Numbered from the stretch's first letter, positions 8,260 to 24,719 are shown. The stretch: DNA of 36,872 nucleotides from Bacillota bacterium (GCA_021821025.1 JAKACY010000002.1:1-36872); one strand, 5' to 3'. A program made the numbers and translations. The notes: a model not told the origin generated them from the letters alone.

Positions 8260-8741
8260 TTATTGCAACTGCCCAATCTTATCCACTAGGCGCCAACAGA
8301 AAGTCCACTCTCGAACAGACAGCGGCATATCGGCGTACTTGATTCCGCATTCCGAGCAAATCTTGCTCGATTCAAACCGCCTGTCCGCCACAGTGAGCTT
8401 TGCGCCATGCATCGCCGTCTTGTATTCCAATTGCCGTCGAAACTCATGAAACCCCATATCACTAATTGCACGTGCTAAACGATGATTCGCCAACAGGCCG
8501 CGTACATTCAAATTTTCGATGGGGTAAACATGATGGTAATCCTGGTTTGAAGGTCCTTTGGAAAGGACTTGTCGGCTTGAGGACCTAACCACAATGTGGG
8601 GGATTCTTCATCCAACGTGATTTATGGGTAATGCTAAGGGCTTTAGCCATAGGGCGGTTCAGGATACAGTTCATCTCCGCCGCCTTTAGACTTTGCATCA
8701 ACCTTGTATGATTCATAATAGCAAAGGCAGGCAGGAATCGG
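8260..8741 (-). pseudogene. tnpB: Fossil of an IS200/IS605-family tnpB (RNA-guided nuclease OrfB): N-terminally truncated, frameshifted, C-terminus degenerate
   Basis: ORF 8260..8592 reads PIENLNVRGLLANHRLARAISDMGFHEFRRQLEYKTAMHGAKLTVADRRFESSKICSECG...PLSVREWTFC. This is the RuvC-II / zinc-finger region of TnpB. The following DRD..NAA.NI block is missing or degenerate. The upstream piece (ITHKSRWM, frame of ORF 8585..8776) is in a different frame. No tnpA gene and no element ends were recognised. Confidence 0.6.
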
Positions 8742-9419
8742 TCAAGTGAAGAAGACAATCGTGCGCTCGCATGCATTTTTCAGGTGCGTGGCCATGGCTT
8801 GAACGGCTCTAGTTGTATCTCGGGATTGGAGCGCCGTCAGAATGTCATGGTGCTCCATCCATTCTGCTTCGCTGAAATCGGCTTGGGTAAAGATGGCGAT
8901 ATAGTTGAGATACCTTTGGATACGGGCGATGTGTTCGTTCACAGCGGCAGCGAGGACGTCGTTGTCGCAGTACTTGAGCACAACGCCATGGACCGAATTG
9001 TTTATCGACTCAATCCAGTTGCGAAACCCGCTTGCGCTTATCACGGTGGGACTGGACAACTGCTGGAGGTGTTCTTGAACAGCAAGAAGTTCCCACTGCG
9101 GGATGACCGGGGTGGCCTTTTCTACGGCGTATGATTCAAGAACCCGCCGAATTTCGAAGATGCTATGCAGTTCCTTACGAGAGATGTGCGAGACAAAGGT
9201 ACCTTTAAATGGAACTGTCTCGACGAACCCCTCAGATGCTAGTCTGGACAGCGCCTCTCGGATAGGAATGTTGCTGACCTCCCACTTTCTGGAGAGTTGA
9301 TCGATATTGATACGATCCCCCGACTTCAGTTGATAAGAGAGAATTTGCTGCTTGATCAGCTTGTATAGTTCATCGGTCAAAACATAGCGCATCGGGCGAT
9401 TTTTCAAGGACTCCTCCAC
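8742..9419 (-). CDS. GntR family transcriptional regulator (FadR/FCD subfamily)
   Basis: 225 aa. Winged-helix motif LKSGDRINIDQLSRKWEVSNIPIREALSRLASEGFVETVPFKGTFV, followed by a helical FCD-like C-terminal domain. Confidence 0.9.
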   Translation of the reverse strand: MEESLKNRPMRYVLTDELYKLIKQQILSYQLKSGDRINIDQLSRKWEVSNIPIREALSRLASEGFVETVPFKGTFVSHISRKELHSIFEIRRVLESYAVEKATPVIPQWELLAVQEHLQQLSSPTVISASGFRNWIESINNSVHGVVLKYCDNDVLAAAVNEHIARIQRYLNYIAIFTQADFSEAEWMEHHDILTALQSRDTTRAVQAMATHLKNACERTIVFFT

Positions 9420-9780: not shown

Positions 9781-11454
9781 TCAACCTTTCTTGTTGAGGC
9801 CCTCTAGGAACTTGATGTCCTTTTCGCTTTTCGTGAATGAACTAGTGTTAAACGGCTTACCCATGTATTGCTGGGTGGTTTGCAGGTACTGCTGCAGTCC
9901 AAGACCATTGAGTCCTTGGATGTAGGTGTTCCAGTCCTTGCTAAGAGACTTGGTGCCGGCGATAAACTGGTCCATCCACTGGTTTACGTAGTTGTCGATA
10001 TTCGTCTGGTACATAGCATACTGCTGGACTTGGTCGGACGGAATCCATGCAAATCCAGGGTACACCAGTTTCGGTTGATGCCCGGTGTTATTCATCTCAG
10101 TTTCCAACTGGAGCATGGATTCTGATCCTTCACCGGTGTTCGGCGGATACGCGACGTAACCGTTTCTCCACTTGAAAGATTGGTACATCGGGCCGAGCTG
10201 ATTCCAGCCCCAGTTCTGTTGGGAACTTCCATTGTAGAATTCATTAAAGTTGGTGTTGAATATCGCCTGAGTACCCATGAGCCCTTTCTGGCCCTTTTTG
10301 GCGTATGTCCAATATTTTCCTTCGGGTCCAAAGTCCATCATCTGTGTCCCCAGCGGCGTATAAAGGAAGTTGATGAGCTTCATCACGGCAATCTGTTGCG
10401 CCGGCGTTGATGTATTCGTCAACGCGAAGGTGGCGCCAGAAGGTGGCAGTCCGTAAAAGGGAGAGTAATTAATGCCCTTCGGCCCTTTCAGCGGAGCCAT
10501 GGATACCCAGTCATTGAAGTGACTTTGTGGTGTACCGTAATTGTTGATGACGCACTGTTTACATCCGTAAGGGAAAACGCCGACCTTTCCGCTGTTCACT
10601 TGTGCTTGCAATTGCGTGTTGTTCTGCGTCATTGCAGTTTTATCCATCAGACCATTGGCGTACAGGGTATGCAGGTACTCCAAACCTTGCTTCCAACCGG
10701 ATTGCGCGGGTGCGAAAGCCAACTTGCCCTTAGGGTTGATGAAAAAGTAATCCGAGTTGGAGCCGTTTTCGTCATCGTACACGAAGGAGTTCATCAGAAA
10801 GGTGGTGGGATTCGAATGCCATCCACCGCCAGGACCGACGGTCGCGCCAACTAGTGGATCGATGCCATGTTTCTTAAAGACTTCCAGCACATTTTCAAAC
10901 TGACCGGTTGTTGTCGGCATGGACAGATGGAATTTTTTTAAAAGTTTTACGTTGATCCACATCTTTGCGGACCAGTCGCAATGCCAGCACCAGTTGTACG
11001 CAGGCAAGCCGTAGATGTCCCCGTTTGGCGCGGTGACGCCCTGTTTAAATCCGGGAACGGTGTTGATGGCTTTCCAGGCGTTTGGCGCGTATTTCTTCAG
11101 GAGATTGTTCAGGGGGAGGAAAATTCCCTCTGTGCCGTACTGAAGCTCTTGCACCGGCGTGAAGCTTCCGCCCCAGAAGACAGGGGGGTATTTGCCGCTC
11201 TCTAAAAGAAGAGATTCCTTGGTCTGTTCGTCGCTAGCCGGTGCTTCCACCCAGGTGATATTCATGTTGAATTTCTTCTCGACGTACTTTGTGAACCAGT
11301 TGGTATTCATATTGATGATCTGCGTACTCGGTGAGGCGAACATCGACACCTGCACGGGGGATGCAGCCTCAGCGGCGGGAATTGAAAGAGGCGCAGTAAG
11401 CCCCAACATCGCCATCGCAGAGGCGATAAACCCGAACTTTTTCCATAATTTCAT
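9781..11454 (-). CDS. Large family-1 extracellular solute-binding protein (LplA-like) of a carbohydrate ABC importer
   Basis: 557 aa. Signal peptide MKLWKKFGFIASAMAMLGLTAPLSIPAAEA|AS with no lipobox Cys. Size and sequence style match LplA-type oligosaccharide binders. It is the last gene after two permease genes. Confidence 0.85.
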   Translation of the reverse strand: MKLWKKFGFIASAMAMLGLTAPLSIPAAEAASPVQVSMFASPSTQIINMNTNWFTKYVEKKFNMNITWVEAPASDEQTKESLLLESGKYPPVFWGGSFTPVQELQYGTEGIFLPLNNLLKKYAPNAWKAINTVPGFKQGVTAPNGDIYGLPAYNWCWHCDWSAKMWINVKLLKKFHLSMPTTTGQFENVLEVFKKHGIDPLVGATVGPGGGWHSNPTTFLMNSFVYDDENGSNSDYFFINPKGKLAFAPAQSGWKQGLEYLHTLYANGLMDKTAMTQNNTQLQAQVNSGKVGVFPYGCKQCVINNYGTPQSHFNDWVSMAPLKGPKGINYSPFYGLPPSGATFALTNTSTPAQQIAVMKLINFLYTPLGTQMMDFGPEGKYWTYAKKGQKGLMGTQAIFNTNFNEFYNGSSQQNWGWNQLGPMYQSFKWRNGYVAYPPNTGEGSESMLQLETEMNNTGHQPKLVYPGFAWIPSDQVQQYAMYQTNIDNYVNQWMDQFIAGTKSLSKDWNTYIQGLNGLGLQQYLQTTQQYMGKPFNTSSFTKSEKDIKFLEGLNKKG

Positions 11455-11569
11455 AGAATCACAGCCTCCTCACTTGACCTTCTGGATATGGCATACGTTG
11501 GTATGCCCCTGTCTGCTTTGAATCTGTTTTGAATCTGTTTTCTGTGCATGTAGGACCTGCTGCGGTTGC

Positions 11570-12517
11570 TCAGTCTTTCAAAGATCCAATCATCACCCCT
11601 TTGACGAAGTATCGTTGGGCCAGCGGATATAAAGCGACCATCGGAATGCTGCCGATGACGATGAGTGAGTATTTAAGGAGGGTTGCAACGTTTTGGTAGT
11701 AGATCAACTCTTGTGGAGATAGGGTGCTCATGAAACCAAACCCTCCCATGCTAACATTGTTAAACTCGAGAATCGAACGCAACACCATGATGAGTGGATA
11801 CAGTGAAGTTGAATTCAGGAAGATAAGTGCTGGAAAGTATGAGTTCCAGTCTGTGACCATGGTTAGCAGCGCAATGACGGCGATGATAGGCTTTGAAATG
11901 GGGATGACGATACGCATGAAGAATCCGAAATCACTCGCACCGTCAATCTCGGCAGCCTCGCGCAGTGCCTGCGGCACACTGGCTTGGAAAAACGTCTTCG
12001 CCAGGATGATTAGAAACACGTTTAATGCAAAGGGTACAATCTGTGACCATATGGTGTTGAGCATGCCGAGGTCTTGGACGACGATGTAAAATGGGATAAG
12101 CCCCCCGTTGAACATCAAGGCAAACAGTAAGAGCCAGACGAAAATCTTGCGACCCACGAGGTCTCGGACGGACAGAGGATAGGCCATTAGCAAGGTCAGG
12201 ATGACTGTTAACAGCGTGCCGCCTACTGAGTAGATAATAGAGTGCCAGAGCCCCGGTAATACCGTGTTGTAGCGAAAGACGGCAGAGTACCCATCGAGCG
12301 TAAAGTGGACCGGCCATAACCAGACCTTCCCGTCGATGACAGCCGCACCGGAACTTAGGGATGAGCTGATAATGTAGATCATCGGGTAGACAACTGCAAT
12401 GCCTATAGCGGTCAAGGAGCTATAGATAAGGATGAGAAATAGTCGGTCGCCCGTTGATTCCCGAACATGATTTCTATGCTCAGACGATTTTGTGAATTGG
12501 GTGCTTGGCAGTGACAT
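11570..12517 (-). CDS. Carbohydrate ABC transporter permease (LplC-like)
   Basis: 315 aa, multi-TM. The EAA-type loop reads ALREAAEIDGASDFGFFMRIVIP. Confidence 0.9.
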   Translation of the reverse strand: MSLPSTQFTKSSEHRNHVRESTGDRLFLILIYSSLTAIGIAVVYPMIYIISSSLSSGAAVIDGKVWLWPVHFTLDGYSAVFRYNTVLPGLWHSIIYSVGGTLLTVILTLLMAYPLSVRDLVGRKIFVWLLLFALMFNGGLIPFYIVVQDLGMLNTIWSQIVPFALNVFLIILAKTFFQASVPQALREAAEIDGASDFGFFMRIVIPISKPIIAVIALLTMVTDWNSYFPALIFLNSTSLYPLIMVLRSILEFNNVSMGGFGFMSTLSPQELIYYQNVATLLKYSLIVIGSIPMVALYPLAQRYFVKGVMIGSLKD

Positions 12518-12553
12518 CCAGTTTCCCCCCGTGCTCGATAAGATTATGTAGAC

Positions 12554-13528
12554 TTAGAACAGGCTGGTATCGGACACATATCGAGCAACGATATTGGCGA
12601 TGACCAATAGAATGAATCCGATGACGGAGTTGAATAGACCGACTGCGGTTGCAAACGAGAAGTTCGCGTCGACCAATCCTACCTGGTAGGTGTAGGTCGA
12701 GATGACCTGAGATGTGCTCATGTTCAGTGGGTTCTGCATGAGAAAGACCTCCTCCAAGGATGCGGCGTTCAACAGTCCACCAATTGCAAGAATCACGAGG
12801 ACGATGACGGTAGGTTTGATACCTTGCCAATCAATGTTTAGAATCCTCTGAAATCTCGAAGCGCCATCAATGCGCGCGGCGTCGTATAGTTCTGGATTTA
12901 CGTTAGATAAGGCTGCCAAGTAGATTACGGCTCCATATCCAGTTGTTTGCCAGACGCCAGACCAGACGTATAAAGATGAGAATGCGCCGGGGCTGGACAT
13001 CCAATCAGGGACGTTGCTCACGCCAAACAGGTGGAACAAGCCTGCAAGCGGGCTTGCGCTAGGCGCGAGCAAAATCTGCATCATTCCCACCAGGACCACG
13101 GCGGAAACAAAGTAGGGAATATAGGTAATGGTCTGGATTGTCTTTTTGAACCACAAGTGCTTGACTTCATTAAGCGCGATGGCGAGAACGATGGAAGCGA
13201 TGGTGCCGATGATGAGAGAGTAAACTCCGATGGTCAGTGTGTTATCGAGAGTCGGCCAAAAGTAGGGGGACTGGAGCCAGAACTGCATCTCCTGCATGCC
13301 TATCCACGGGCTGTGCCAGATTCCTCCAACGGGATTGTACATACGAAAGGCAATCTGAATTCCAAGCATCGGCCAATAGTTGAAAATAGCCAAAAAAGCA
13401 AGCGGAAGACTGATCATCGCGTACAGTTGCCAGTGTCGGATGATTCGCTTTGCCAGACTCTTTCTTCTGATACCGGCACCGATAGACACTTCGTTGGATG
13501 CGTTGACAGCGTTGATTGGGATCCCCAT
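12554..13528 (-). CDS. Carbohydrate ABC transporter permease (LplB-like)
   Basis: 324 aa with RBS AAGGGGAGGG. The N-terminus RHWQLYAMISLPLAFLAIFNYWPMLG and the loop YDAARIDGASRFQRILNI are typical of LplB/YteP permeases. No ATPase gene is present, as is usual for CUT1 systems that use a shared MsmX-type ATPase. Confidence 0.9.
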   Translation of the reverse strand: MGIPINAVNASNEVSIGAGIRRKSLAKRIIRHWQLYAMISLPLAFLAIFNYWPMLGIQIAFRMYNPVGGIWHSPWIGMQEMQFWLQSPYFWPTLDNTLTIGVYSLIIGTIASIVLAIALNEVKHLWFKKTIQTITYIPYFVSAVVLVGMMQILLAPSASPLAGLFHLFGVSNVPDWMSSPGAFSSLYVWSGVWQTTGYGAVIYLAALSNVNPELYDAARIDGASRFQRILNIDWQGIKPTVIVLVILAIGGLLNAASLEEVFLMQNPLNMSTSQVISTYTYQVGLVDANFSFATAVGLFNSVIGFILLVIANIVARYVSDTSLF

Positions 13529-13809: not shown

Positions 13810-13871
13810 AATCATACATGATTTATTGTTGTAACTGCCGACATTCTATTACGAATTTTCCGACTTGTCAA
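13810..13871 (-). promoter_or_regulatory. Minus-strand promoter TTGACA-17-TAGAAT with downstream operator AATCATGTATGATT (plus coordinates 13810..13823), upstream of the ABC importer operon
   Basis: The reverse complement reads ggTTGACAagtcggaaaattcgtaaTAGAATgtcggcagttacaacaataAATCATGTATGATT. The -35 box is at 13866-13871 and the -10 box at 13843-13848. The same 12-mer core occurs at 13932 and 20421. Confidence 0.5.
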
Positions 13872-13900
13872 CCATCAAGAGCGGTTTCTTGACTCTGGAA

Positions 13901-13943
13901 TTGACTATTCATAATAATATTAATAGACTAAATCATGTATGAT
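13901..13943 (+). promoter_or_regulatory. Plus-strand promoter TTGACT-17-TAGACT with abutting operator ATCATGTATGAT (13932..13943)
   Basis: TTGACT at 13901-13906, a 17-nt AT-rich spacer, TAGACT at 13924-13929, 2 nt, then ATCATGTATGAT. The architecture and spacing are the same as at 20390..20439. Confidence 0.55.
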
Positions 13944-14035
13944 GTATAATATTTGTGGTGTTCGATAAGTTTGCTAAGTCGATCTCAGAGGAGTCGCATG
14001 AAGCAACCGCTCGGAGGCAGACAGGGGGAATATCG

Positions 14036-14436
14036 GTGAAAATCATCAACGTGGAAGCGTATACACTTCAGGAGCCAGTTGCACCACCGTTTGTTTGGAG
14101 ACGGGGGCTTCCTGGGTCGGGAACGATGAATGAGCTGATCTCGTTCGCACGAGTACTGGGTTAAAAGGCGGAATTACGGGTGCGCTTAGAATTGCACATC
14201 TAGCAGATTCATTTGGTATGAAAGCGGAAATACACGGGGGTGGCTTACCTAACCTTCACCTTGCGTGCGCAATCCCTAACAATTCCTATTATGAAATCCT
14301 GGTCTTTGGGGAACCTGCACAATTCGCCCACAATATAGGGCCAGATAGCTGCATTTTTGTGCCTAATGATCCAGGTATCGGATATCAATTCGATTGGGAG
14401 GAATTGAAACAAAAAGCAGTTCTGAAGATTGAATAA
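14036..14436 (+). pseudogene. Enolase-superfamily (mandelate racemase/muconate lactonizing enzyme-like) dehydratase with a large internal deletion
   Basis: GTG 14036 (RBS GGGGGA) opens VKIINVEAYTLQEPVAPPFVWRRGLPGSGT, a typical capping-domain N-terminus. From about 14134, in a different frame, the sequence reads ADLVRTSTGLKGGITGALRIAHLADSFGMKAEIHGGG...PNNSYYEIL...PGIGYQFDWEEL, a typical barrel C-terminus. The roughly 250 codons carrying the KxK/D/E/E catalytic residues are absent. Confidence 0.65.
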
Positions 14437-14691
14437 GACCATCCGGGATCGGTCCGGGCAGTATTGAATCGGAACTCATCATGTTCAGGTAGATCGAACA
14501 ATGGTTGGGAGAAATACCGCAACTCACGATTCAGAATATTCATCAGCTTGTGTATGATAGTAAAGGATCGTAGCATGGTAGGATGGTATTTTGGCCAGTG
14601 AGGAGTCCGGTTACGGGGAATTAGTGGGTCCTTTTGAAAAGTAAAGTACGAGAAGCTTTAAATTCCTTAAGACACGGTGGGGTGGATCAGA

Positions 14692-15528
14692 ATGGACCGG
14701 ATTGACGCGCACCAACACTACTGGAAGTTGGATCGTGGAGACTACGCCTGGTTGACTCCGGAGTATGGTCCCTTGTACCGGGACTTTCTTCCGCAGGACC
14801 TTCGTCCCTATTTAGACAGTTGTGGTATTTCAAAGACAATTGTTGTACAGGCTGCGCCGACCGTGGAAGAAACAGAGTTCTTACTCAAACTTGCTGACAA
14901 CCACCCTTCCATTGCCGGTGTTGTCGGTTGGTTGAATTTGGAGTCCGATGATTTTCCTGCAAAATTGCAACGCATGTCTCGGCATCCAAAGTTTGTAGGC
15001 ATTCGGCCCATGCTTCAGGATCTGCCGCAAGACGATTGGATCCTGAGACGGCAAGTAGTGGACAATGTCGCGATTATAGTGGAGCAAGAAATTCCGATGG
15101 ACATCCTGGTTTTCCCACGCCACCTACCGTACATTTCTCGCCTCTTACAAATGTTCCCCAAGCTGCATGGGGTCATTGACCATTTAGCCAAGCCGCCGAT
15201 CCATGCGCGGGTTTTGGAACCTTGGCGTTCCCTCATCGCTGAAATTGCAGAGTATCCATCTGTCATGTGCAAACTTTCCGGGATGGTGACAGAAGCAGAT
15301 CATGAAAACTGGAAGCCATCTGACCTACGTCCATACGTTGAACATGTCCTAAGCGTCTTCGGACCGGATCGAGTGATGTTCGGCAGTGACTGGCCAGTGT
15401 GTACAGCGGTTGCCGATTATGAGACGGTTTACCAGACTCTTCAGGATCTGCTACCGAAGGACTTATCTCATGAGAAATGGGATCTTATCTTTGGTGGAAA
15501 TGCCGCAAGATTTTACGGAATCGAGTGA
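14692..15528 (+). CDS. Amidohydrolase_2 (COG3618) family; candidate L-fucono-/L-galactono-1,5-lactonase
   Basis: ATG 14692 follows GGTGGGGTGGA. The N-terminus MDRIDAHQHYW, then VIDHLAKPPI, CKLSGMVTEA and MFGSDWPVC, match the COG3618 sugar-lactonase pattern. Confidence 0.8.
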   Translation: MDRIDAHQHYWKLDRGDYAWLTPEYGPLYRDFLPQDLRPYLDSCGISKTIVVQAAPTVEETEFLLKLADNHPSIAGVVGWLNLESDDFPAKLQRMSRHPKFVGIRPMLQDLPQDDWILRRQVVDNVAIIVEQEIPMDILVFPRHLPYISRLLQMFPKLHGVIDHLAKPPIHARVLEPWRSLIAEIAEYPSVMCKLSGMVTEADHENWKPSDLRPYVEHVLSVFGPDRVMFGSDWPVCTAVADYETVYQTLQDLLPKDLSHEKWDLIFGGNAARFYGIE

Positions 15529-15570
15529 GCACTCGTTCGTTCTCATATTTCGAAAGGGGCGTGAAATGAA

Positions 15571-16827
15571 TTGCCCAAAGACTGTAAACAACCGTGGTGG
15601 CAAGAAGCGAAATACGGAATGTTCATTCACTGGGGACTGTATGCTCAGTTAGCCGGAGAATGGAAGGGAATTCGGACACCCCATATCGGGGAATGGATCA
15701 TGAAGCATCTGGGCATCCCCGTCGATGAATATGAACAGGTGGCTCGACAGTTCAATCCGATCGATTTCGACGCATATCAATGGGTACGTTTGGCGAAAGA
15801 AGCTGGTATGAAGTACATCGTGATCACTGCGAAACACCATGACGGTTTCGCCATGTTTCATTCAACATGCTCGCCCTATAATATCGTGGATGCAACGCCT
15901 TTTAAAAGGGATCCCATCGCAGAATTGGCGCAAGCTTGTCAAGATGCGGGTATCAAGTTGTGTTTTTACTACTCCCAGGCTCAGGACTGGCATGACCCGA
16001 ATGGATATGGCTATGGGCCGATTCCAGATGAAAACAAAGACTTTTCAAAGTATCTCGAAGAAAAGTGCAAACCTCAACTTAGGGAACTGCTCACCCAATA
16101 CGGGGATGTTGGCCTCATTTGGTTTGACACGCCGCTGATTATGTCGGAGCAACATAGCAGGGAATTGGCGCAGTATGTCAAAAGTATACAGCCCAACTGC
16201 CTGGTCAGCGGTCGGATCGGCAATCAGATTGGAGACTATATGTCCACCGGAGACAATATGATTCCAGCTTTGCCGTACTATGGGGACTGGGAGGTTCCGG
16301 CGACGCTGAATGATACCTGGGGTTATAAATCATTCGACACCAACTGGAAATCTCCTAAAGACATCCTTCAGTTATTGGTCAAGATCAATAGTCGCGGCGG
16401 GAATTATTTATTAAACGTTGGCCCGGATGCGCGCGGAATTATTCCAGAAGCCAGTGCTCAGATTTTGCGGGAGGTTGGTCAATGGCTCGCTCGAAATGGC
16501 GCAAGCATTTACGGCACACAACCGGTTCCTGTTTTTCCGTACGAGTTGCCTTGGGGAACCTTCACCTACAAGCCAGGGAAATTGTATTTGCACGTCTTTG
16601 ACTGGCAAAAAGACATTCATATTCACGGCCTAGCCAATGATATGACAAAGGCTTATTGGCTTTCCACCGGGGCAGCGGTTCCCGTTGAACGTCGTTATAT
16701 TCCTTCACTCAAGCAACATCGAACTACCTTCCATCTTGGATCGACACCACAGGATTCGCTGGATTCTGTCATTTGTCTAGAGTTATATGGTGATCGCCTG
16801 ATGTTTGATTCACTGGATACCTTGTAA
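15571..16827 (+). CDS. GH29 alpha-L-fucosidase (paralog 1), no signal peptide
   Basis: TTG start; an in-frame TGA lies 9 nt upstream. Motifs: YGMFIHWGLY, TAKHHDGFAMF, GLIWFDTP (nucleophile Asp context) and GGNYLLNVGPDARG. Confidence 0.9.
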   Translation: MPKDCKQPWWQEAKYGMFIHWGLYAQLAGEWKGIRTPHIGEWIMKHLGIPVDEYEQVARQFNPIDFDAYQWVRLAKEAGMKYIVITAKHHDGFAMFHSTCSPYNIVDATPFKRDPIAELAQACQDAGIKLCFYYSQAQDWHDPNGYGYGPIPDENKDFSKYLEEKCKPQLRELLTQYGDVGLIWFDTPLIMSEQHSRELAQYVKSIQPNCLVSGRIGNQIGDYMSTGDNMIPALPYYGDWEVPATLNDTWGYKSFDTNWKSPKDILQLLVKINSRGGNYLLNVGPDARGIIPEASAQILREVGQWLARNGASIYGTQPVPVFPYELPWGTFTYKPGKLYLHVFDWQKDIHIHGLANDMTKAYWLSTGAAVPVERRYIPSLKQHRTTFHLGSTPQDSLDSVICLELYGDRLMFDSLDTL

Positions 16828-16901
16828 GGGCTCCTATTCGGAGTTGAATTCAACCTGTCTTACTACTATTTCCCATTTGGAAAGAAAGCGAGGATACCTC
16901 A

Positions 16902-17867
16902 ATGTCTAAATCTTTTGCCTCTCATCGTCCACTCGGTAGTACTGGACTAGTGGTCACGTCGCTCTGCGTTGGCGGTGCTCCATTGGGTGATATGCCAGAA
17001 ACCTTTGCCTACAGTGCACCAGAAGAGAATGCGCTAGCCACCATTCGTGCCGCCTTTGCAAGTCCCATCAACTTTCTCGATACTGCGGCCGCATATGGAG
17101 ATGGAGAAAGCGAGCGTCGAATTGGCAAGGTGATTCGCGAGATGGGCGGACTCCCAGCGGGCTTTGTATTAGCCACCAAAGCTGATCGCCATTTGCAAAC
17201 AGGAGACTTTAGTGGCGAACAAATCAAGCGTTCCATCGAAGGAAGTCTTCAGCGATTGGGACTTGACCGCTTGCAATATGTATATATCCACGATCCAGAA
17301 CACACCACTTTCGAAAATGTCATGGGATCGTGCGGACCGCTTGAAGTGTTGAAGAACTTTAAGGAGCAAGGAGTTATTGATCACATTGGTATATCCGGCG
17401 GTCCCATCGACATGCTGATTCGCTATGTACAAACAGGAGAGTTCAGCGCTGTGGAGACCCATAATCGCTACACCCTGCTCAACCGATCCGCGGAGCCTTT
17501 ACTGGATGTTGCCAATCAACTACATGTTGCGGTCATCAATGCGGCGCCCTACGGGAGCGGCATCTTAGCGAAAGGGCCAGATGCCTACGCTCGTTATGCA
17601 TACGATGATGCGCCCCCGGCGTTGCTTGAACGCGCTCGAGGGCTTGCAAGGGTCTGCCAGGAATACAATGTGCCGCTGGCAGCTGTGGCACTTCAATTCT
17701 CTCTAAGGGATCCCCGGATTACGAGCACTGTCGTTGGCATGACAAAGCCGGAACGCATCAGCCAGACTATGGAACTTGCCAGTTATCCCATTCCCGCGGA
17801 TATTTGGCCAAAACTAGATGCCATTGGGTTTGATACGGACAATCCCGAGGCCAATAGATTTAGATGA
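16902..17867 (+). CDS. Aldo/keto reductase; candidate L-fucose (D-threo-aldose) 1-dehydrogenase
   Basis: 321 aa with an AKR fold pattern (LDTAAAYGDGESERRIG, ATKADR, IHDPE, GISGG). The functional guess rests on the operon context and on the known AKR-type L-fucose dehydrogenase of Pseudomonas. Confidence 0.75.
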   Translation: MSKSFASHRPLGSTGLVVTSLCVGGAPLGDMPETFAYSAPEENALATIRAAFASPINFLDTAAAYGDGESERRIGKVIREMGGLPAGFVLATKADRHLQTGDFSGEQIKRSIEGSLQRLGLDRLQYVYIHDPEHTTFENVMGSCGPLEVLKNFKEQGVIDHIGISGGPIDMLIRYVQTGEFSAVETHNRYTLLNRSAEPLLDVANQLHVAVINAAPYGSGILAKGPDAYARYAYDDAPPALLERARGLARVCQEYNVPLAAVALQFSLRDPRITSTVVGMTKPERISQTMELASYPIPADIWPKLDAIGFDTDNPEANRFR

Positions 17868-17899
17868 ACACACGTCATGGCTAGGTAGGTGAAAACGCA

Positions 17900-18334
17900 A
17901 TGTTAATAGGGATTCCTGAAGTAATTTCTCCAGATTTGCTGAAGATCTTGATGGAGATGGGGCATGGAGACGAAATCGTATTGGCGGATGGAAACTTTCC
18001 GGCGGTAAGTCACGCTAATCGCTTAGTGAGAGCAGATGGGCACGGGATAGTCACTTTATTAGACGCAATTCTTGAGCTATTCCCACTGGATGCCTACGTC
18101 GATCATCCAGTTGCCCTCATGCAGGTTGTTCCCGGAGATACCGTGGAAACCCCAATTTGGGATACTTTCGCAGCTGTCCTTGGTGAGCGGACCGGAGTAA
18201 GTCAGCCATTTGAGTACATGGAGCGATTCTCATTCTACGAAAGGGCGCGCAAGGCGTATGCAATTGTTGCTACCGGTGAACGGGCATTGTACGCAAACAT
18301 GATCCTGAAAAAAGGCGTAATTTGCAAAAAATAG
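17900..18334 (+). CDS. fucU: L-fucose mutarotase (RbsD/FucU family)
   Basis: 144 aa. ISPDLLKILMEMGHGDEIVLADGNFP ... RFSFYERARKAYAIVATGERALYANMILKKGV is near-colinear with E. coli FucU as I recall it. Confidence 0.9.
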   Translation: MLIGIPEVISPDLLKILMEMGHGDEIVLADGNFPAVSHANRLVRADGHGIVTLLDAILELFPLDAYVDHPVALMQVVPGDTVETPIWDTFAAVLGERTGVSQPFEYMERFSFYERARKAYAIVATGERALYANMILKKGVICKK

Positions 18335-20389: not shown

Positions 20390-20439
20390 TTGACTTATCT
20401 GAATATTATGCTTAGACTGAATCATGTATGATACATGAT
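20390..20439 (+). promoter_or_regulatory. Promoter TTGACT-17-TAGACT with the 19-bp perfect palindrome operator ATCATGTAT-G-ATACATGAT (20421..20439)
   Basis: TTGACT at 20390-20395, a 17-nt spacer, TAGACT at 20413-20418, 2 nt, then the palindrome. The layout matches 13901..13943. Confidence 0.6.
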
Positions 20440-20550: not shown

Positions 20551-21648
20551 GTGAAGATCACGAAGGTGGAAAGCTTCGTCCTGCACGTACCACTCAATCC
20601 CCCGATTACCGATGCCATTAATTCACCTACGCATTGGGGGTTGCCTGGAGTACGGATATTTACGGACGAGGGTATCGTGGGATACGGCTATACCGGAACT
20701 TGCGCGTTAGGTGATGAGATGATCGCGGACACAATTGATCGGTACTACGCCCCCGCACTATTGCAGCGCGATCCATTTCTGGTCCGGGATATCTGGCAGA
20801 GTCTGCGTTATGGTGACTTGCACTGGGTAGGTAGGGCGGGCATCACGCAGATGGCGTTGGCCGCGGTGGATATCGCGCTGTGGGACATCATGGCTAAAGC
20901 CGCGGGAGAGCCATTGTGGCGGTATTTGGGCGGGCATAAGACAGACGGAATAAAGGCATACAACACGAATGGCGGATGGTTAAACTGGACGACTGACCGC
21001 CTGCTGCAGGATATAACCACCTTCGTTGATGAGGGTTTTACGGGCGTGAAGATGAAGGTGGGCAAACCGGACCCGAAAGAAGATTACGAACGGGTCAAGG
21101 CGGTGCGCCAAGCCATCGGAGACGACGTAGACCTGATGTTGGATGTCAATCAGGGCTGGAACATTACTACGGCGATGCGATGGGGTAAAAAGCTCGAAGA
21201 TTTTGACCCGCTATGGTTGGAAGAACCTCTGAACCCGGATGATACGATTGGCCATAAGAAATTGGCTGATGAACTCAACACGGCCATCGCGCTCGGGGAG
21301 CACCTATACACGAAGTACGCTTTTCGAGATTACATCCATCAAGGTGCGGTGGAGTACGTGCAGGTCGATGCGACCCGGGTCGGCGGTATCACAGAATGGT
21401 TGGAAGTCGCCGGGCTTGCGGCGGCGTATGACCTGCCCATCGTCCCACACGTTGGTGACATGGGCCAAATACACCAGCACTTGGTTGCAGCGACGAGAAA
21501 TGCGCCGATGCTGGAGTATATTCCGTGGATTCGGCATATCTTTGTTGAGCCGGTACAAGTGGAGAAAGGTCGTTACAGGTTGCCTGAATTGCCGGGAGCT
21601 GCGACGGAGGTCTCTCCGGAGGCGTTTGAAAGGTACCGCGTTCGCTAA
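20551..21648 (+). CDS. Enolase-superfamily, MR-subgroup acid-sugar dehydratase; candidate L-fuconate/L-galactonate dehydratase
   Basis: GTG start 5 nt after GAGGAG. Motifs: KxK (GVKMKVG), metal ligands in LMLDVNQGW, WLEEP and ALGEH, and the Asp/His dyad in VQVDATRVGGITE and IVPHVG. Specificity is inferred from context only. Confidence 0.8.
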   Translation: MKITKVESFVLHVPLNPPITDAINSPTHWGLPGVRIFTDEGIVGYGYTGTCALGDEMIADTIDRYYAPALLQRDPFLVRDIWQSLRYGDLHWVGRAGITQMALAAVDIALWDIMAKAAGEPLWRYLGGHKTDGIKAYNTNGGWLNWTTDRLLQDITTFVDEGFTGVKMKVGKPDPKEDYERVKAVRQAIGDDVDLMLDVNQGWNITTAMRWGKKLEDFDPLWLEEPLNPDDTIGHKKLADELNTAIALGEHLYTKYAFRDYIHQGAVEYVQVDATRVGGITEWLEVAGLAAAYDLPIVPHVGDMGQIHQHLVAATRNAPMLEYIPWIRHIFVEPVQVEKGRYRLPELPGAATEVSPEAFERYRVR

Positions 21649-21773
21649 AGACGCTTCTCATAAAATGGCCGCAGTCTTAAAATAGATGCTTCCTTAGCAT
21701 ATCGCATGAAAAATGAGTCCCGGCCGCAAGTTCAGTTCGCACAAGGAAAACAAATATTGAGGAGGGGATATCG

Positions 21774-23024
21774 ATGGCAGCCATACATCCAGGTGCCCAG
21801 TGGTTTCCGGACGCAAAGCTGGGTATGTTCATTCATTGGGGCCCGTATTCACTAAGAGGGATTGAGGCTTCGTGGCCGCTTCAGCCGCACAGCCATCAGT
21901 ATATCGCGACTGAGGAGTACGAGGCGTTGGCCCTGGACTTTTGCCCTGAACACTACGATCCTGTTAAATGGGCTCGCATGGCTAAAGAGGCGGGAGCCAA
22001 GTACGTCGTGCTGACGGCAAAGCACCACGATGGCTACTGTCTGTTTGATACCAAGACCACCGACTACTGTGCGCCGAAAACAGGGCCTGGCGTTGATCTC
22101 ATCACTCCGTATGTGGAGGCCGTACGCGCTGCTGGGCTCAAGGTCGGATTCTACTTCACCACGATTGATTGGCACGATCCTGATTTTGCTACTATTCCTA
22201 TCAAGTCCTACATCCAGTCTCCTAAACCATTTGTTTATGATCCGCAGCGCTGGTACAGTTTTCACCAACGTTTTATGACCCAACTCACGGAGTTATTGAC
22301 GAACTACGGGCAAATTGACCTGATCTGGTTTGACGTGCCAGGGTTCGGTGCGGATCGCTGGCGCAGCTATGAAGTCAAGCAGATGATGCTCAATCTACAG
22401 CCACACATCGTCATCAACGATCGGCTTCCTGAAGTGGGAGACTACGCAACACCGGAGCAGTTTATCCCACACCATCCACCGAAAGGCTGGTGGGAGACCT
22501 GCATGACCATGAACCATCAATGGGCGTATCACCCAGACGGGTCTACTTACAAGGATGTCCGCACCTTGATTCGAACCCTTACGGAGGTGGTGCACAAAGG
22601 GGGAAACCTGCTTTTGAACGTCGGACCGAAGCCGGACGGAACCTTTCCTCAGGAGGCTGTACAGCGCCTTGAGAGCATCGGCCAGTGGATGGGACATTCG
22701 GGATCCAGTCTGTACGGAACACGCCCTGCGCCTGAAGGTGCTTCAGAGTGTTTCTATGGGCCGCTGACAACTAAGGATAACACAGTGTTCCTGCACGTGT
22801 TGGACATTCCGCAAGGGCCTGTCGAACTGCGAGGCGTTGCTGGCGAGGTCGTGAGCGTTACACTGATGTCGACAGGGGATCCGCTATCATACCGAGTACA
22901 TAACGCACCACACTTCTGGGACTCTAGCGAGCAGCGACTTGAAGTGGATTTGTCCCGTGAGCAGTGCGATCCGTACAATACCGTCATCGCGGTTGAGTTT
23001 GCGCAACCCCCTTTGTGGCCGTAG
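21774..23024 (+). CDS. GH29 alpha-L-fucosidase (paralog 2), no signal peptide
   Basis: RBS GAGGAGGGG. Motifs: LGMFIHWGPY, TAKHHDGYCLF, DLIWFDVPG and GGNLLLNVGPKPDG. Confidence 0.9.
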   Translation: MAAIHPGAQWFPDAKLGMFIHWGPYSLRGIEASWPLQPHSHQYIATEEYEALALDFCPEHYDPVKWARMAKEAGAKYVVLTAKHHDGYCLFDTKTTDYCAPKTGPGVDLITPYVEAVRAAGLKVGFYFTTIDWHDPDFATIPIKSYIQSPKPFVYDPQRWYSFHQRFMTQLTELLTNYGQIDLIWFDVPGFGADRWRSYEVKQMMLNLQPHIVINDRLPEVGDYATPEQFIPHHPPKGWWETCMTMNHQWAYHPDGSTYKDVRTLIRTLTEVVHKGGNLLLNVGPKPDGTFPQEAVQRLESIGQWMGHSGSSLYGTRPAPEGASECFYGPLTTKDNTVFLHVLDIPQGPVELRGVAGEVVSVTLMSTGDPLSYRVHNAPHFWDSSEQRLEVDLSREQCDPYNTVIAVEFAQPPLWP

Positions 23025-23053
23025 ATTTTGGGTGATAGGGAGGACGGTGCTCG

Positions 23054-23344
23054 GTGGCAAGGTATGGAATGGTCATCAAGGTGATGCCGGGAAAAGTCGA
23101 GGAGTATGTGCGGTTGCAACAAGCCGTGTGGCCTGAGGCTACTCCATCTTTTTGAAAGACGATCTGCTTTTTAGTTACTACGAGTAACAGGTGAGGATTA
23201 CGAGGGAGATATGGCGAAGATGGCCGCCGATTCGATGACGAAAAAATGGTGGGCACTTTGCGAACCTTGTCAGGACCCATTGCAGACGCGGGCCCCTGGC
23301 GAATGGTGGCCCAGATGGAGGAAGTGTTCCGACTGGACGAATGA
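23054..23344 (+). pseudogene. Decayed L-rhamnose-mutarotase-family (RhaM/YiiL, DUF718) gene, paralog of 35763..36089
   Basis: GTG 23054 reads VARYGMVIKVMPGKVEEYVRLQQAVWPE, then about 30 nt are missing relative to the intact copy. A 1-nt deletion creates TAA (YYE*), and another 1-nt deletion lies near the end (GEWW/QMEEVFRLDE*). The nucleotide alignment to 35763..36089 is obvious by eye and includes the RBS region. Confidence 0.7.
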
Positions 23345-23417
23345 AGGCTGCGTGGTTCGTGGTGTCCGATGAATCTATGGAATTAGCGGATTTGATATAC
23401 CCGAAGGAGTGTGGAGA

Positions 23418-24719
23418 ATGGCAAAACTGCTGAGTAAGACAGAGTATGAGCAAAACGTGGCTGAGAGTCGCGATCGGCGGATGGCTTGGTGGCGAGAAGC
23501 CCGCTTTGGGATGTTCGTGCACTTTGGACTATACGCGCTCATTGGTAGAAACGAATGGGCGATGTCCTTGGAGAATTACCCAATTGCTGAGTATGAGAAG
23601 TTGGCCCAACAATTCAATCCAAAGCCTGGTGCGCCGAGGGAATGGGCGAAGCTAGCTAAGGCGGCAGGGATGAAGTACATGGTATTGACCACGCGGCATC
23701 ATGATGGCTTCAGCCTGTGGGATTCCAAGGTGAATCCGTACAATAGCGTGAACATCGGGCCGAAGCGGGACATCGTGCGCGAGTTCGTCGATGCTTGTCG
23801 GGAGTTCGACCTGCGCATTGGCTTTTACTCTTCGTTGATGGACTGGCACCATCCGGACGGTGGTCGTGCCGCGTATGATCGCGAGGCTCGCGCTCGCTTC
23901 ACAGCTTATGTGAAGGGGTTGAATCGCGAGCTCATGACGCAGTACGGAAAGATCGATGTACTATGGTACGACGTTGCTCTGCCCATGGAGACGTGGGAAG
24001 GTTGGGATTCGCTGACGATGAATCAGATGGTGCGCGAACTGCAACCGGATATCATTCTCAACAACCGCAGCAGACTGGACGAGGATTTCGGAACACCTGA
24101 GGAACACCTGACCGCGATGGACAGGGACTGGGAAGCGTGCATGACATTCAACGGCATCAGTTGGGGATATGTGGATTCTAAACAGGCGATGCCGTACAGC
24201 TATAATGCACAGCGCATCATCCGCATGCTAAATACCGTCACGGCAGGAGGAGGAAACCTACTTCTTAATATTGGCCCGGCGCCGGATGGATCTGTACCGC
24301 AGGAGGCCCAGGTACCGCTGGAAACGGTAGGGAGGTGGCTTGCGAGAAACGGGCAGGCGGCCTACGGGGTCAAGCAAAGAACGGAGTTTAGTAGGGCAAG
24401 TGGGGTATGCGGTAGTTCCCGCGAAGGCAACCGTGTATATCTGTGGAACTGGGTGTGGCCACGTGAGGGGCAGATGGCCCTCGGAGGGTTCGTAACACCC
24501 GTGAAGACTATTCGACTGGTGGAGGATGGTAAGCCGATTGAATTTGAACAACGCGGCCACCGCATTATTTTGAAAAACCTGCCCGCATCGTCGCCGGATG
24601 AAATTGCGGGTATCGCAGTTTTGGAACTGGAGTTTGAGGAACCTCCTGTGTTTCACTTCGCCAGTTACTTTCCGCAGCTGCACGGTGGTTTCGATTACGC
24701 AGAAAACGGGAAATTGTAG
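23418..24719 (+). CDS. GH29 alpha-L-fucosidase (paralog 3), no signal peptide
   Basis: ATG 23418 lies 8 nt after GAAGGAG. Motifs: RFGMFVHFGLY, TTRHHDGFSLW, DVLWYDVAL and GGNLLLNIGPAPDG. Confidence 0.9.
   Translation: MAKLLSKTEYEQNVAESRDRRMAWWREARFGMFVHFGLYALIGRNEWAMSLENYPIAEYEKLAQQFNPKPGAPREWAKLAKAAGMKYMVLTTRHHDGFSLWDSKVNPYNSVNIGPKRDIVREFVDACREFDLRIGFYSSLMDWHHPDGGRAAYDREARARFTAYVKGLNRELMTQYGKIDVLWYDVALPMETWEGWDSLTMNQMVRELQPDIILNNRSRLDEDFGTPEEHLTAMDRDWEACMTFNGISWGYVDSKQAMPYSYNAQRIIRMLNTVTAGGGNLLLNIGPAPDGSVPQEAQVPLETVGRWLARNGQAAYGVKQRTEFSRASGVCGSSREGNRVYLWNWVWPREGQMALGGFVTPVKTIRLVEDGKPIEFEQRGHRIILKNLPASSPDEIAGIAVLELEFEEPPVFHFASYFPQLHGGFDYAENGKL

What the first reader, a model, noticed from the sequence alone, without database searches (positions are those of the whole stretch)
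13810..13943. Divergent control region with two promoter-locked copies of an ATCATGTATGAT palindrome (predicted GntR-type operator)
Seen directly: the intergenic region between the ABC importer operon (minus strand) and the lactonase-GH29-AKR-fucU operon (plus strand) holds two sigma-A-like promoters, each followed by the same 12-mer in the same orientation relative to transcription.
- Minus strand: TTGACA-17-TAGAAT, then 19 nt, then AATCATGTATGATT (plus coordinates 13810-13823).
- Plus strand: TTGACT-17-TAGACT, then 2 nt, then ATCATGTATGAT (13932-13943).

The core is an inverted repeat (ATCAT-GT-ATGAT). A third copy sits at 20421. Operators that overlap or closely follow the -10/+1 region are the classical repressor position. 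AT-rich GT...AC-containing palindromes are the general style of GntR/FadR-family sites. The only GntR regulator in the window (8742..9419) lies just past the 3' end of the importer operon. Assigning this motif to that regulator is inference.
Basis: partly seen in the sequence, partly recalled or inferred. Interest (0 to 1): 0.7.

Follow-up and report, generated by a model that had tools for sequence, protein, structure and literature searches.

The report
Operator sites of a fucose-locus GntR repressor
Three copies of a short DNA palindrome sit on the promoters of a fucose-sugar utilisation locus and are almost certainly the binding sites of the GntR-type repressor encoded next door, because 70 of 72 related bacterial loci carry the same motif, mostly right beside their own copy of that regulator gene; this is a well-supported but ordinary kind of gene switch.

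Summary
ATCATGTATGAT occurs exactly three times, at 13811-13822 (-), 13932-13943 (+) and 20421-20432 (+). Each copy lies just downstream of a sigma-A-like promoter.

Comparative genomics now supports it strongly.
- In 72 Paenibacillus, Cohnella and Gorillibacterium loci encoding homologs of the window's GntR/FCD protein (38-49% identical), the motif with at most one mismatch occurs 138 times in 1.40 Mb. Permuted control 12-mers average 7.2.
- 111 of the 138 hits lie within 150 nt of the regulator gene's ends, which is 1.5% of the sequence.
- The targets are the regulator itself, SDR-enolase-lactonase operons, orthologs of the window's ABC importer, and other sugar transporters.
- A matrix built only from those genomes ranks the three window sites first (22-25 of 25.3 bits).
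- The closest relative (L083, regulator 66% identical) keeps -35, -10, a 2-nt gap and a 19-bp composite operator in front of its enolase operon.

Consensus: ATCRT-GT-AYGAT, a loose FadR-subfamily GT-N2-AC palindrome, often with a third half-site 7 bp away.

Most likely mechanism: a DgoR-like local repressor occludes the promoters and is released by a fucose-pathway sugar acid. The effector is inferred.

Verdict: new member of a known kind, modest interest.

The parts
13811..13822 (-). Operator C. ATCATGTATGAT read on the minus strand, 20 nt downstream of the -10 box of the ABC-importer promoter (about +15 to +26).
   Evidence: Exact match. External matrix score 25.1 of 25.3 bits. Promoters of perm1 orthologs in 8 Paenibacillus/Cohnella loci carry the motif, usually as two sites. 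The site is not conserved in L083.
13843..13871 (-). Promoter of the ABC importer (and probably GntR) operon: TTGACA-17-TAGAAT.
   Evidence: 11 of 12 consensus match, the best in 8200-21000. The -35 region ATGGTTGACA is conserved in L083.
13901..13929 (+). Promoter A: TTGACT-17-TAGACT. It drives the enolase remnant, lactonase, GH29, AKR and FucU genes.
   Evidence: It aligns with promoter B and with the L083 enolase promoter TTGACA-17-TAAAAT.
13932..13950 (+). Operator A: ATCAT-GT-ATGAT plus a third half-site GT-ATAAT. It starts 2 nt after the -10 box and so covers the transcription start.
   Evidence: Exact match. 23.7 bits; the overlapping second register scores 12.2 bits. It aligns with the 19-bp composite operator of L083.
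20390..20418 (+). Promoter B: TTGACT-17-TAGACT. It drives the enolase gene and three GH29 genes.
20421..20439 (+). Operator B: the perfect 19-bp palindrome ATCATGTAT-G-ATACATGAT, made of two overlapping 12-mers offset by 7 bp. It starts 2 nt after the -10 box.
   Evidence: Scores of 22.4 and 17.5 bits. L083 has ATCGTGTATGATACATGAT at the same position of its enolase promoter.
8742..9407 (-). GntR-family regulator with an FCD ligand domain (FadR subfamily). The probable start is TTG at 9407, after a GGAGG ribosome-binding site (221 aa). This is the predicted repressor that binds the operators.
   Evidence: Pfam GntR 4.8e-14 and FCD 5.2e-16. Translation. 61 homologs with E-values of 1e-41 or better. 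Motif co-localisation with homologs.
9781..13528 (-). ABC importer genes: two permeases (12554-13528, 11570-12517) and a large solute-binding protein (9781-11454). Predicted regulon member.
   Evidence: Pfam BPD_transp_1. Orthologs at 52-59% identity lie downstream of the GntR gene with operators in Paenibacillus and Cohnella.
14037..14436 (+). Remnant of an enolase-superfamily gene. An N-terminal 43 codons and a C-terminal 72 codons survive, and about 700 nt are missing.
   Evidence: ORFs. MR_MLE_C E=6e-4. Only faint similarity to the intact enolase gene.
14677..18334 (+). Lactonase (Amidohydro_2, similar to L-fucono-1,5-lactonase), GH29 alpha-L-fucosidase, aldo-keto reductase and FucU mutarotase. 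Predicted regulon members.
   Evidence: AKR (77-78% identity) and lactonase orthologs lie beside the GntR gene in L025 and L038, with a motif copy about 70 bp upstream of the lactonase gene, i.e. between the two genes.
20551..26108 (+). Enolase-superfamily acid-sugar dehydratase (20551-21648) followed by three GH29 fucosidase genes. Predicted regulon members.
   Evidence: The enolase ortholog (72-79% identity) is next to the GntR gene in most of the 72 loci and is 86% identical in L083.
8701..8712 (+). Degenerate motif copy (ACCTTGTATGAT), 30 nt past the GntR stop codon. Probably a relic of an ancestral downstream operator.
   Evidence: Two mismatches and 7.4 bits. 46 of 72 homolog loci have an operator at the same position. 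The adjacent gene is a TnpB fragment.

Best explanation
The 12-mer is the core operator (consensus ATCRT-GT-AYGAT) of a clade of FadR-subfamily (FCD-domain) GntR repressors found in Paenibacillaceae-like Firmicutes. The protein encoded at 8742-9407 is one of them.

A repressor dimer binds the 5+5 inverted repeat, one half-site per winged helix. At promoters A and B the site starts 2 nt after the -10 hexamer and extends to a third half-site 7 bp further on. Bound protein would therefore cover the transcription start and block RNA polymerase. At the importer promoter the single site lies at about +15 to +26 and would block escape or elongation.

The three promoters control uptake (ABC importer, probably with the regulator gene itself by read-through), release (GH29 fucosidases) and oxidative, non-phosphorylative catabolism of L-fucose (mutarotase, AKR dehydrogenase, lactonase, enolase-type dehydratase).

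Induction most likely occurs when a pathway sugar acid binds the FCD domain and releases the DNA, as D-galactonate does for E. coli DgoR. L-fuconate or 2-keto-3-deoxy-L-fuconate are the likely candidates.

Shown: the sites, their promoter positions, their conservation, and their exclusive association with this regulator clade. Inferred: physical binding, the sign of regulation, the effector, and co-transcription of the regulator with the importer.
For: 1. Sites and promoters are present as described.
2. The only GntR/FCD gene in the window lies at the 3' end of the importer operon. No terminator-like site lies between the binding-protein gene and the regulator gene on that strand.
3. Seventy-two homolog loci were recovered. 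They hold 49 exact and 138 one-mismatch copies in 1.40 Mb, against 0.21 and 7.2 for 200 permuted 12-mers.
4. 70 of 72 loci have a copy.
5. 111 of 138 copies lie within 150 nt of the regulator gene's ends. Density there is 4.7-5.6 per kb, against 0.007 per kb beyond 2 kb, which is the chance level.
6. 114 of 138 copies are intergenic and within 400 nt upstream of a gene start. By nearest downstream gene the main targets are the regulator (46), enolase (14), perm1 (8) and lactonase (3). Clustering the unlabelled target genes adds an SDR family (20 genes), binding-protein and MFS transporters, and a GDSL esterase.
7. Promoter layouts are conserved: the site lies in the -35/-10 spacer or directly after the -10 box, and often as two inverted sites 20-26 bp apart.
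8. The matrix built from other genomes ranks the three window sites first.
9. L083 (regulator 66%, permease 85%, enolase 86% identical) has TTGACA-17-TAAAAT-aa-ATCGTGTATGATACATGAT, and its promoter spacer has diverged from the window's.
10. The DNA-binding domain is conserved and the recognition helix is invariant.
11. Negative controls: eight proteobacterial and other loci with 27-35% identical GntR proteins have no copy. Seven loci (L084-L090) with 69-78% identical permeases but no GntR gene have no copy with fewer than two mismatches; the only weaker matches are two 2-mismatch chance hits in L088 and L089.
12. The motif fits the FadR-subfamily scheme of GT-N2/3-AC palindromes, and extra half-sites at 7-12 nt are a known feature (PMC4494728).
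13. The DgoR precedent: a sugar-acid effector and two inverted repeats overlapping the promoter (PMC11705089).
Against: - No binding, expression or transcription-start data exist.
- The window's regulator gene, and its two closest homologs on short contigs (L081 at 76% and L082 at 65% identity), have no motif upstream of their own genes, unlike most Paenibacillus homologs. A stem-loop without a T-run follows the binding-protein gene (seen directly), and a weak promoter-like site lies at 9571-9543. Autoregulation in this lineage is therefore uncertain.
- Site C is not conserved in L083.
- All three window sites have A/T at positions 4 and 9, where the canonical family signature is GT...AC.
- The invariant, asymmetric GT centre is not explained by a simple symmetric dimer.
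- The FCD domain is only 32-40% identical to the Paenibacillus homologs, so the effector could differ.
- Several genomes carry two paralogs with the same motif (for example L009/L053 and L014/L062), so the one-to-one assignment of regulator to site is not strict.
Confidence: 0.85

Rival explanations
1. The sites are bound by the same GntR protein, but it acts as an activator or dual regulator rather than a simple repressor.
For: No expression data exist. Site C lies well downstream of the start rather than on the -10 box. The -10 hexamers TAGACT are weak (9 of 12 overall), and weak promoters sometimes need activation.
Against: The sites lie from about -4 to +15 at promoters A and B, and inside the -35/-10 spacer in many homolog promoters. 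A bound protein in those positions competes with RNA polymerase. Characterised sugar-acid FadR-type regulators such as DgoR are repressors.
Confidence: 0.07
2. A different transcription factor recognises the motif, for example one of the two LacI proteins or the AraC protein in the window, or a global regulator such as CcpA. On this view the association with the GntR gene is incidental.
For: The window encodes LacI (7100-8065, 26541-27674) and AraC (28962-29909) regulators.
Against: - The motif follows the GntR gene across 70 of 72 genomes, including loci that lack enolase or fucosidase genes nearby (L002-L011). No LacI or AraC gene is consistently present in those loci.
- The motif lacks the central CG of LacI and cre sites.
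- A separate LacI-style palindrome, TAACAACGTTGTTA, occurs twice in the window at other promoters, next to the LacI gene at 7100.
- L084 has an orthologous transporter with LacI-type regulators and no motif.
Confidence: 0.04
3. The repeats are only leftovers of a duplicated promoter segment (paralogous DNA) and have no operator function.
For: Promoters A and B align over about 65 bp and share the unusual hexamers TTGACT and TAGACT. The locus shows several gene remnants, which implies rearrangement.
Against: Between A and B the spacer and flanks have diverged, while the -35 box, the -10 box and the 12-mer are intact. Site C sits in an unrelated promoter. The same motif is conserved in genomes whose regulators are only 38-49% identical.
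Confidence: 0.03
4. The element works at the RNA level, as a hairpin in the 5' leader, rather than as a DNA operator.
For: In the window all three copies lie downstream of the -10 box and in the same orientation, so at least parts of them would be transcribed.
Against: - In many homolog promoters the motif lies between the -35 and -10 boxes and so is not transcribed. It also occurs in both orientations relative to transcription.
- A 5-bp A/U-rich stem with a 2-nt loop is not a stable hairpin (general RNA-folding knowledge; not computed here).
- There are no Rfam hits in the window.
Confidence: 0.01

Closest known systems
E. coli DgoR (GntR family, FadR subfamily; repressor of the D-galactonate operon)
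   Same: - It has the same domain organisation, a winged helix plus an all-helical effector domain.
- It is a local regulator of a sugar-acid pathway that uses an enolase-superfamily dehydratase.
- It represses by binding inverted repeats that overlap the promoter, often two closely spaced (PMC11705089). Homologs of the window protein use the same two-site layout.
   Different: - The operator sequence differs: TTGTAGTACAA for DgoR, ATCRTGTAYGAT here.
- No significant sequence match to a DgoR structure appeared in the PDB search. The best matches were Thermotoga TM0439-type entries 3fms and 3sxy, at E=1e-18.
- The predicted effector and pathway differ (L-fucose branch).
- DgoR is the first gene of its operon. 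Here the regulator is the last gene of the importer operon.
Bacillus subtilis GntR and the generic FadR-subfamily operator scheme (NyGT-N2/3-ACNy; TKGT/ACMA boxes)
   Same: - The operator is an A/T-rich inverted repeat.
- When positions 4 and 9 are G and C, the motif reads ATC-GT-GT-AC-GAT, which is GT-N2-AC. PMC4494728 lists the GntR, HpxS, HypR, MdcY and PrpR groups with this 2-nt spacing.
- Additional weaker half-sites at 7-12 nt are described there, and they are seen here at 7 bp.
   Different: - Positions 4 and 9 are often A and T (77 of 133 and 122 of 133 sites), and this is so in all three window sites. The hallmark GT/AC is therefore frequently absent.
- The flanking TK/MA boxes are replaced by ATC/GAT.
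- The 2-bp centre is an invariant, non-palindromic GT.
Bacteroides thetaiotaomicron FucR (GntR-family L-fucose-responsive repressor)
   Same: It is a GntR-family local repressor of L-fucose utilisation genes (from my own knowledge of Hooper et al. 1999; not checked here).
   Different: It controls the phosphorylative fucRIAK pathway and senses L-fucose itself. It belongs to a different phylum. No sequence or motif comparison was made here.
Campylobacter jejuni FucR (IclR family)
   Same: It regulates an L-fucose utilisation locus (PMC12566272, title and abstract listed). It is a functional analogue.
   Different: It belongs to a different transcription-factor family (IclR), which implies a different operator type.

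Membership tests
GntR family, FadR subfamily (FCD) regulator with its cognate operator | N-terminal GntR-type winged helix-turn-helix domain | tested here: met
   Pfam PF00392 E=4.8e-14, residues 15-76. This is the most conserved part of the clade alignment.
GntR family, FadR subfamily (FCD) regulator with its cognate operator | C-terminal all-helical FCD effector and oligomerisation domain | tested here: met
   Pfam PF07729 E=5.2e-16, residues 87-214. The best solved relatives are FCD-type GntR proteins 3fms and 3sxy, at E=1e-18.
GntR family, FadR subfamily (FCD) regulator with its cognate operator | Operator is an inverted repeat that fits NyGT-N(2-3)-ACNy with TKGT/ACMA boxes (PMC4494728) | tested here: inconclusive
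   The clade consensus ATCRT-GT-AYGAT becomes GT-N2-AC only when R=G and Y=C. The three window sites have A and T at those positions. The inverted-repeat symmetry (5+5 with a 2-bp centre) and A/T richness are met. The TK/MA boxes are not.
GntR family, FadR subfamily (FCD) regulator with its cognate operator | Sites lie in promoters of the regulator's own or neighbouring operons (local regulon) | tested here: met
   65 of 72 homolog loci have a site within 150 nt of the regulator gene. In the window, sites lie on the promoter of the operon that ends in the regulator gene and on two nearby catabolic operons. There is no site directly upstream of the window's regulator gene.
GntR family, FadR subfamily (FCD) regulator with its cognate operator | The protein binds the site as a dimer, and binding is relieved by a small-molecule effector | not testable with these tools
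   Needs gel-shift, footprinting or ITC experiments with purified protein.
DgoR-like sugar-acid-responsive repressors | The effector is a sugar acid bound through a divalent metal in the C-terminal domain | not tested
   Invariant N131, H135, H181 and H203 in the clade alignment are compatible with a metal site as I recall it from FCD structures. No structural comparison was made.
DgoR-like sugar-acid-responsive repressors | Two closely spaced inverted repeats overlap the regulated promoter | tested here: met
   Many homolog promoters have two 12-mers in inverted orientation 20-26 bp apart, overlapping the -35/-10 region. In the window, site B is two overlapping 12-mers and site A has a third half-site. 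Site C is single.

The most novel reading that the evidence does not exclude
This clade would be the first defined regulator of oxidative (non-phosphorylative) L-fucose and fucoside utilisation in Firmicutes. On this reading it senses L-fuconate or 2-keto-3-deoxy-L-fuconate. Its operator is an array of 5-bp ATCAT/ATGAT half-sites phased every 7 bp around an invariant asymmetric GT centre. That layout would imply binding by more than a simple symmetric dimer, for example a dimer plus an extra subunit, or a tetramer as in Atu1419. In many promoters the -10 hexamer itself would serve as the third half-site.
Probability: 0.3. Interest if true: 0.45.

Novelty: new member of a known kind. Interest (0 to 1): 0.3.

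Why it matters
- It gives a concrete, testable operator (ATCRTGTAYGAT) and regulon for a regulator clade that is only generically annotated and is widespread in Paenibacillus and Cohnella.
- It links an ABC importer, GH29 fucosidases and an oxidative L-fucose pathway into one regulatory unit.
- That helps to annotate fucose and fucosylated-glycan utilisation loci in soil and plant-associated Firmicutes.
- The operator and repressor could serve as a fucose- or fuconate-responsive switch.
- It does not change how GntR-type regulation is understood.

Tried and rejected
- A genome-collection scan with the single GntR protein found no relatives. It succeeded only with an alignment of homologs.
- The two closest GntR homologs (76% and 65% identical) lie on 1.6-2.1 kb contigs and have no motif. 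They gave no footprint.
- Most close homologs of the permease (69-78% identical; L084-L090) come from other, often high-GC, organisms. Their loci have no GntR gene and no convincing motif. They served only as negative controls.
- I tested whether the broken enolase gene after site A is a recent copy of the intact enolase at 20551. It is not: the only similarity is 40% over 35 residues.
- I tested whether the conserved unit is the 19-bp perfect palindrome of site B. Across genomes the 3' extension is weak (C at position 14 in only 16 of 133 sites), so the 12-mer is the conserved core.
- DNA looping between sites C and A was considered. Their centres are 121 bp apart, about 11.5 helical turns, which is out of phase, so there is no support for it.
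- The Rfam scan of the window gave nothing.
- Literature searches for the motif strings and for GntR, fuconate and Paenibacillus found no prior description in the held library.
- One Python control run timed out and was redone in vectorised form.

Full report
OBSERVATION

The 12-mer ATCATGTATGAT occurs exactly three times in the window: at 13811-13822 on the minus strand, and at 13932-13943 and 20421-20432 on the plus strand. All three copies share the 13-mer AATCATGTATGAT.

- TTGACA-17-TAGAAT on the minus strand (13871..13843). At 11 of 12 it is the best match between 8200 and 21000.
- TTGACT-17-TAGACT at 13901-13929 and again at 20390-20418 on the plus strand.

The 12-mer starts 2 nt after the -10 hexamer at the two plus-strand promoters and 20 nt after it at the minus-strand promoter. 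It has the same orientation relative to transcription in all three cases.

Two details were missed. The copy at 20421 is part of a perfect 19-bp palindrome, ATCATGTAT-G-ATACATGAT (20421-20439). The copy at 13932 is followed by a third half-site (ATCAT-GT-ATGAT-GT-ATAAT).

Promoters A and B align with each other. The -35 box, the -10 box and the operator are intact, while the spacer and flanks have diverged.

CHANCE

Within the window, matches with up to two mismatches number 12 against 4.35 expected, and none of 100 shuffles reaches 12. A triple 12-mer is not in itself rare after the fact, however. In 53 of 300 Markov-simulated windows, some 12-mer is present three or more times. The case therefore rests on position and on outside evidence.

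GENE CONTEXT

- Minus strand: two ABC permeases (12554-13528, 11570-12517), a large solute-binding protein (9781-11454) and a GntR/FCD regulator. The regulator ORF is 8742-9419. Its likely start is TTG at 9407, after a GGAGG site.
- Plus strand, first operon: an Amidohydro_2 lactonase (best NCBIfam match L-fucono-1,5-lactonase), a GH29 fucosidase, an aldo-keto reductase and FucU.
- Plus strand, second operon: a 365-aa enolase-superfamily dehydratase (20551-21648) and three GH29 genes.

Between promoter A and the lactonase gene lies the remnant of a different enolase-superfamily gene (14037-14436). The window also encodes two LacI regulators and one AraC regulator.

WHOSE SITE IS IT?

A protein search found 61 close homologs of the regulator, almost all from Paenibacillus and Cohnella, at 42-48% identity. 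Two metagenomic relatives are 76% and 65% identical. Searching genome collections with an alignment of these returned 72 Paenibacillus, Cohnella and Gorillibacterium loci with up to 10 kb of flank on each side. Their regulators are 38-49% identical to the window's over the full alignment.

- In these 1.40 Mb the 12-mer occurs 49 times exactly and 138 times with at most one mismatch. For 200 permuted 12-mers the means are 0.21 and 7.2, and the maxima 4 and 26.
- 70 of 72 loci have a copy.
- 111 of the 138 copies lie within 150 nt of the ends of the regulator gene, which is 1.5% of the sequence. Density there is 4.7-5.6 per kb. Beyond 2 kb it is 0.007 per kb, no more than chance.
- 114 of 138 copies are intergenic and within 400 nt upstream of a gene start. 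Most of the rest are artefacts of over-extended ORF calls.
- By nearest downstream gene, the main targets are the regulator itself (46), the ortholog of the window's enolase (14; 72-79% identical), orthologs of the window's permease (8; 52-59%) and the lactonase (3). Clustering the target genes that have no window ortholog adds an SDR dehydrogenase family (20 genes), binding-protein and MFS sugar transporters, and a GDSL esterase.

The promoter sequences show two recurring layouts. In one, the site lies inside the -35/-10 spacer or overlaps the -10 box, for example TTGATA-N-ATCATACATGAT-ATATT upstream of the regulator genes. In the other, the site starts 1-2 nt after a TATAAT-like box, as in the window. 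Promoters of the downstream operons often carry two copies in inverted orientation 20-26 bp apart.

A weight matrix built only from these foreign sites scores the three window sites 25.1, 23.7 and 22.4 bits out of 25.3. The second register of site B scores 17.5. Nothing else in the window exceeds 10 bits apart from overlaps of the same sites. The best score in 100 shuffled windows is 20.1.

CLOSEST RELATIVE

A Logan contig, L083, carries a permease 85% identical, an enolase 86% identical and a GntR 66% identical to those of the window. Its enolase operon diverges from its ABC operon, and the intergenic DNA aligns with the window's divergent region.

The enolase promoter there reads TTGACA-17-TAAAAT-aa-ATCGTGTATGATACATGAT. 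That is the same -35 box, -10 box, 2-nt gap and 19-bp composite operator as window sites A and B, with a different spacer.

The importer-side site C is not conserved in L083 (7 of 12 positions match). It is either lineage-specific or was lost there. More distant Paenibacillus and Cohnella loci do carry operators upstream of their permease orthologs.

NEGATIVE CONTROLS

Eight loci from Proteobacteria and other phyla, with 27-35% identical GntR proteins, have no copy. Seven loci (L084-L090) have 69-78% identical permeases but no GntR gene in view. One of them has LacI-type regulators instead. None has a copy with fewer than two mismatches, and only L088 and L089 hold a single 2-mismatch match of chance quality.

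LacI1 in the window appears to have its own, different palindrome, TAACAACGTTGTTA. It occurs twice, at the promoters of the 2147 and 5763 operons.

PROTEIN SIDE

Between the window protein and 27 homologs, the winged-helix domain is 64% identical (57-69%). The FCD domain is only 35% identical (32-40%). The recognition-helix segment VSNIPIREALSRL is invariant. This fits a shared DNA specificity and leaves room for a diverged ligand pocket.

THE MOTIF

The consensus is ATCRT-GT-AYGAT. Positions 4 and 9 vary symmetrically in kind (A/G and T/C). All other positions, including the non-palindromic central GT, are nearly invariant.

With G and C at positions 4 and 9 the site reads GT-N2-AC. This is the FadR-subfamily scheme described by Suvorova et al. 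(PMC4494728). The same paper notes that weaker extra half-sites at 7-12 nt are common. Here extra ATNAT half-sites sit 7 bp from the core. In many Paenibacillus promoters the extra half-site coincides with the -10 hexamer. The window's three sites use A/T at positions 4 and 9, so they lack the canonical GT/AC.

MECHANISM

The best-supported model is a local, DgoR-like repressor (PMC11705089). A dimer sits on each 12-mer. It occludes the start site at promoters A and B and acts as a roadblock at about +15 to +26 on the importer promoter. A pathway sugar acid would release it.

The regulon content suggests uptake of fucosylated oligosaccharides or fucose, release of L-fucose, and the oxidative route through L-fucono-lactone and L-fuconate. 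The relevant genes are the importer, six GH29 genes in the window, a mutarotase, an AKR, a cog3618-type lactonase and an enolase-type dehydratase.

The effector, the sign of regulation and co-transcription of the regulator with the importer are inferences. On the last point the evidence is mixed. No terminator-like site was called between 9781 and 9419 on the minus strand. A stem-loop without a T-run does follow the binding-protein gene (seen directly in the sequence), and a weak promoter-like site lies at 9571-9543. There is no operator directly upstream of the regulator gene in the window, in L081 or in L082.

RIVALS

- A different regulator. This is excluded in practice by the co-localisation statistics and by LacI1 having its own distinct palindrome.
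- Mere promoter duplication. This is contradicted by conservation across distant genomes and by divergence of the spacers.
- An RNA element. This is contradicted by copies in non-transcribed spacers and in both orientations.
- Activation rather than repression. This is unlikely given the positions of the sites.

NOVELTY

No paper in the searchable library reports this motif or this regulator. The kind of system is thoroughly familiar: an FCD-type GntR repressor with a palindromic operator on the promoters of neighbouring sugar-acid genes. I rate it a new member of a known kind. It is useful for annotation and as a possible inducible switch, and its general interest is modest.

Noticed in passing
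window 2013-2028 and 5679-5692: A second, unrelated palindrome, TAACAACGTTGTTA, has the central CG typical of LacI-family operators. It occurs twice. One copy starts 2 nt after a TTGACT...TAGTTT promoter upstream of the SBP_bac_5 gene (2147). The other follows a TATACT box upstream of the GFO oxidoreductase-LacI operon (5763-8065). It is probably the operator of the LacI regulator at 7100-8065.
   Followed up: partly
window 14037-14436: Remnant of an enolase-superfamily gene, with 43 N-terminal and 72 C-terminal codons and about 700 nt missing. It lies between promoter/operator A and the lactonase gene. It is not a recent copy of the intact enolase at 20551.
   Followed up: partly
window 8260-8712: A degenerate operator copy (ACCTTGTATGAT, 8701-8712) lies 30 nt after the GntR stop codon. 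This is the position where 46 of 72 homolog loci have a functional-looking operator for the downstream SDR-enolase or ABC operon. Here the next gene is a TnpB (Cas12f1-like TNB domain) fragment (8260-8592, minus strand). That suggests an insertion-sequence-associated rearrangement split an ancestral GntR-enolase arrangement.
   Followed up: partly
window 34102-34265: The extended ORF of the GH29 gene at 34102-35694 begins with about 49 residues that match the C-terminal end of Amidohydro_2 (lactonase). This is a truncated lactonase fragment directly upstream of a fucosidase gene, mirroring the intact lactonase-GH29 pair at 14677-16827. The real fucosidase start is probably near 34266.
   Followed up: partly
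window 18344-18628: A 94-aa ORF matches only the last third of the polysaccharide deacetylase domain (profile positions 71-123 of 124). It is another gene fragment in this locus.
   Followed up: no
window 20012-20023: The fully palindromic variant ACCATGCATGAT lies inside the sulfatase ORF (18648-20183, minus strand). Its matrix score is low (9.5 bits), so it is probably chance.
   Followed up: partly
window 13529-13842 (minus strand): A leader of about 310 nt separates the importer promoter from the first permease start codon. Parts of it align with the relative L083, and it has no Rfam match. Its function, if any, is unknown.
   Followed up: partly
loci L009/L053, L011/L020, L014/L062, L015/L068, L037/L054, L041/L057, L049/L056: Several Paenibacillus genomes carry two paralogs of this regulator, at different loci, with the same operator motif. 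One subgroup sits after an ABC importer and a 1518-aa alpha-galactosidase/CBM_X2/CE2 protein and ahead of a GDSL esterase. This implies cross-talk, or one shared regulon served by two sensors.
   Followed up: no
window 20551-21648: The regulon's dehydratase is a 365-aa enolase-superfamily protein. It is closest to the uncharacterised Agrobacterium structure 3tj4/4h19 (E=2.5e-109) and to L-talarate/galactarate dehydratase models (below cutoff). It is not close to the canonical 441-aa L-fuconate dehydratase, which matches only the C-terminal domain. Its substrate is inferred from context only.
   Followed up: partly
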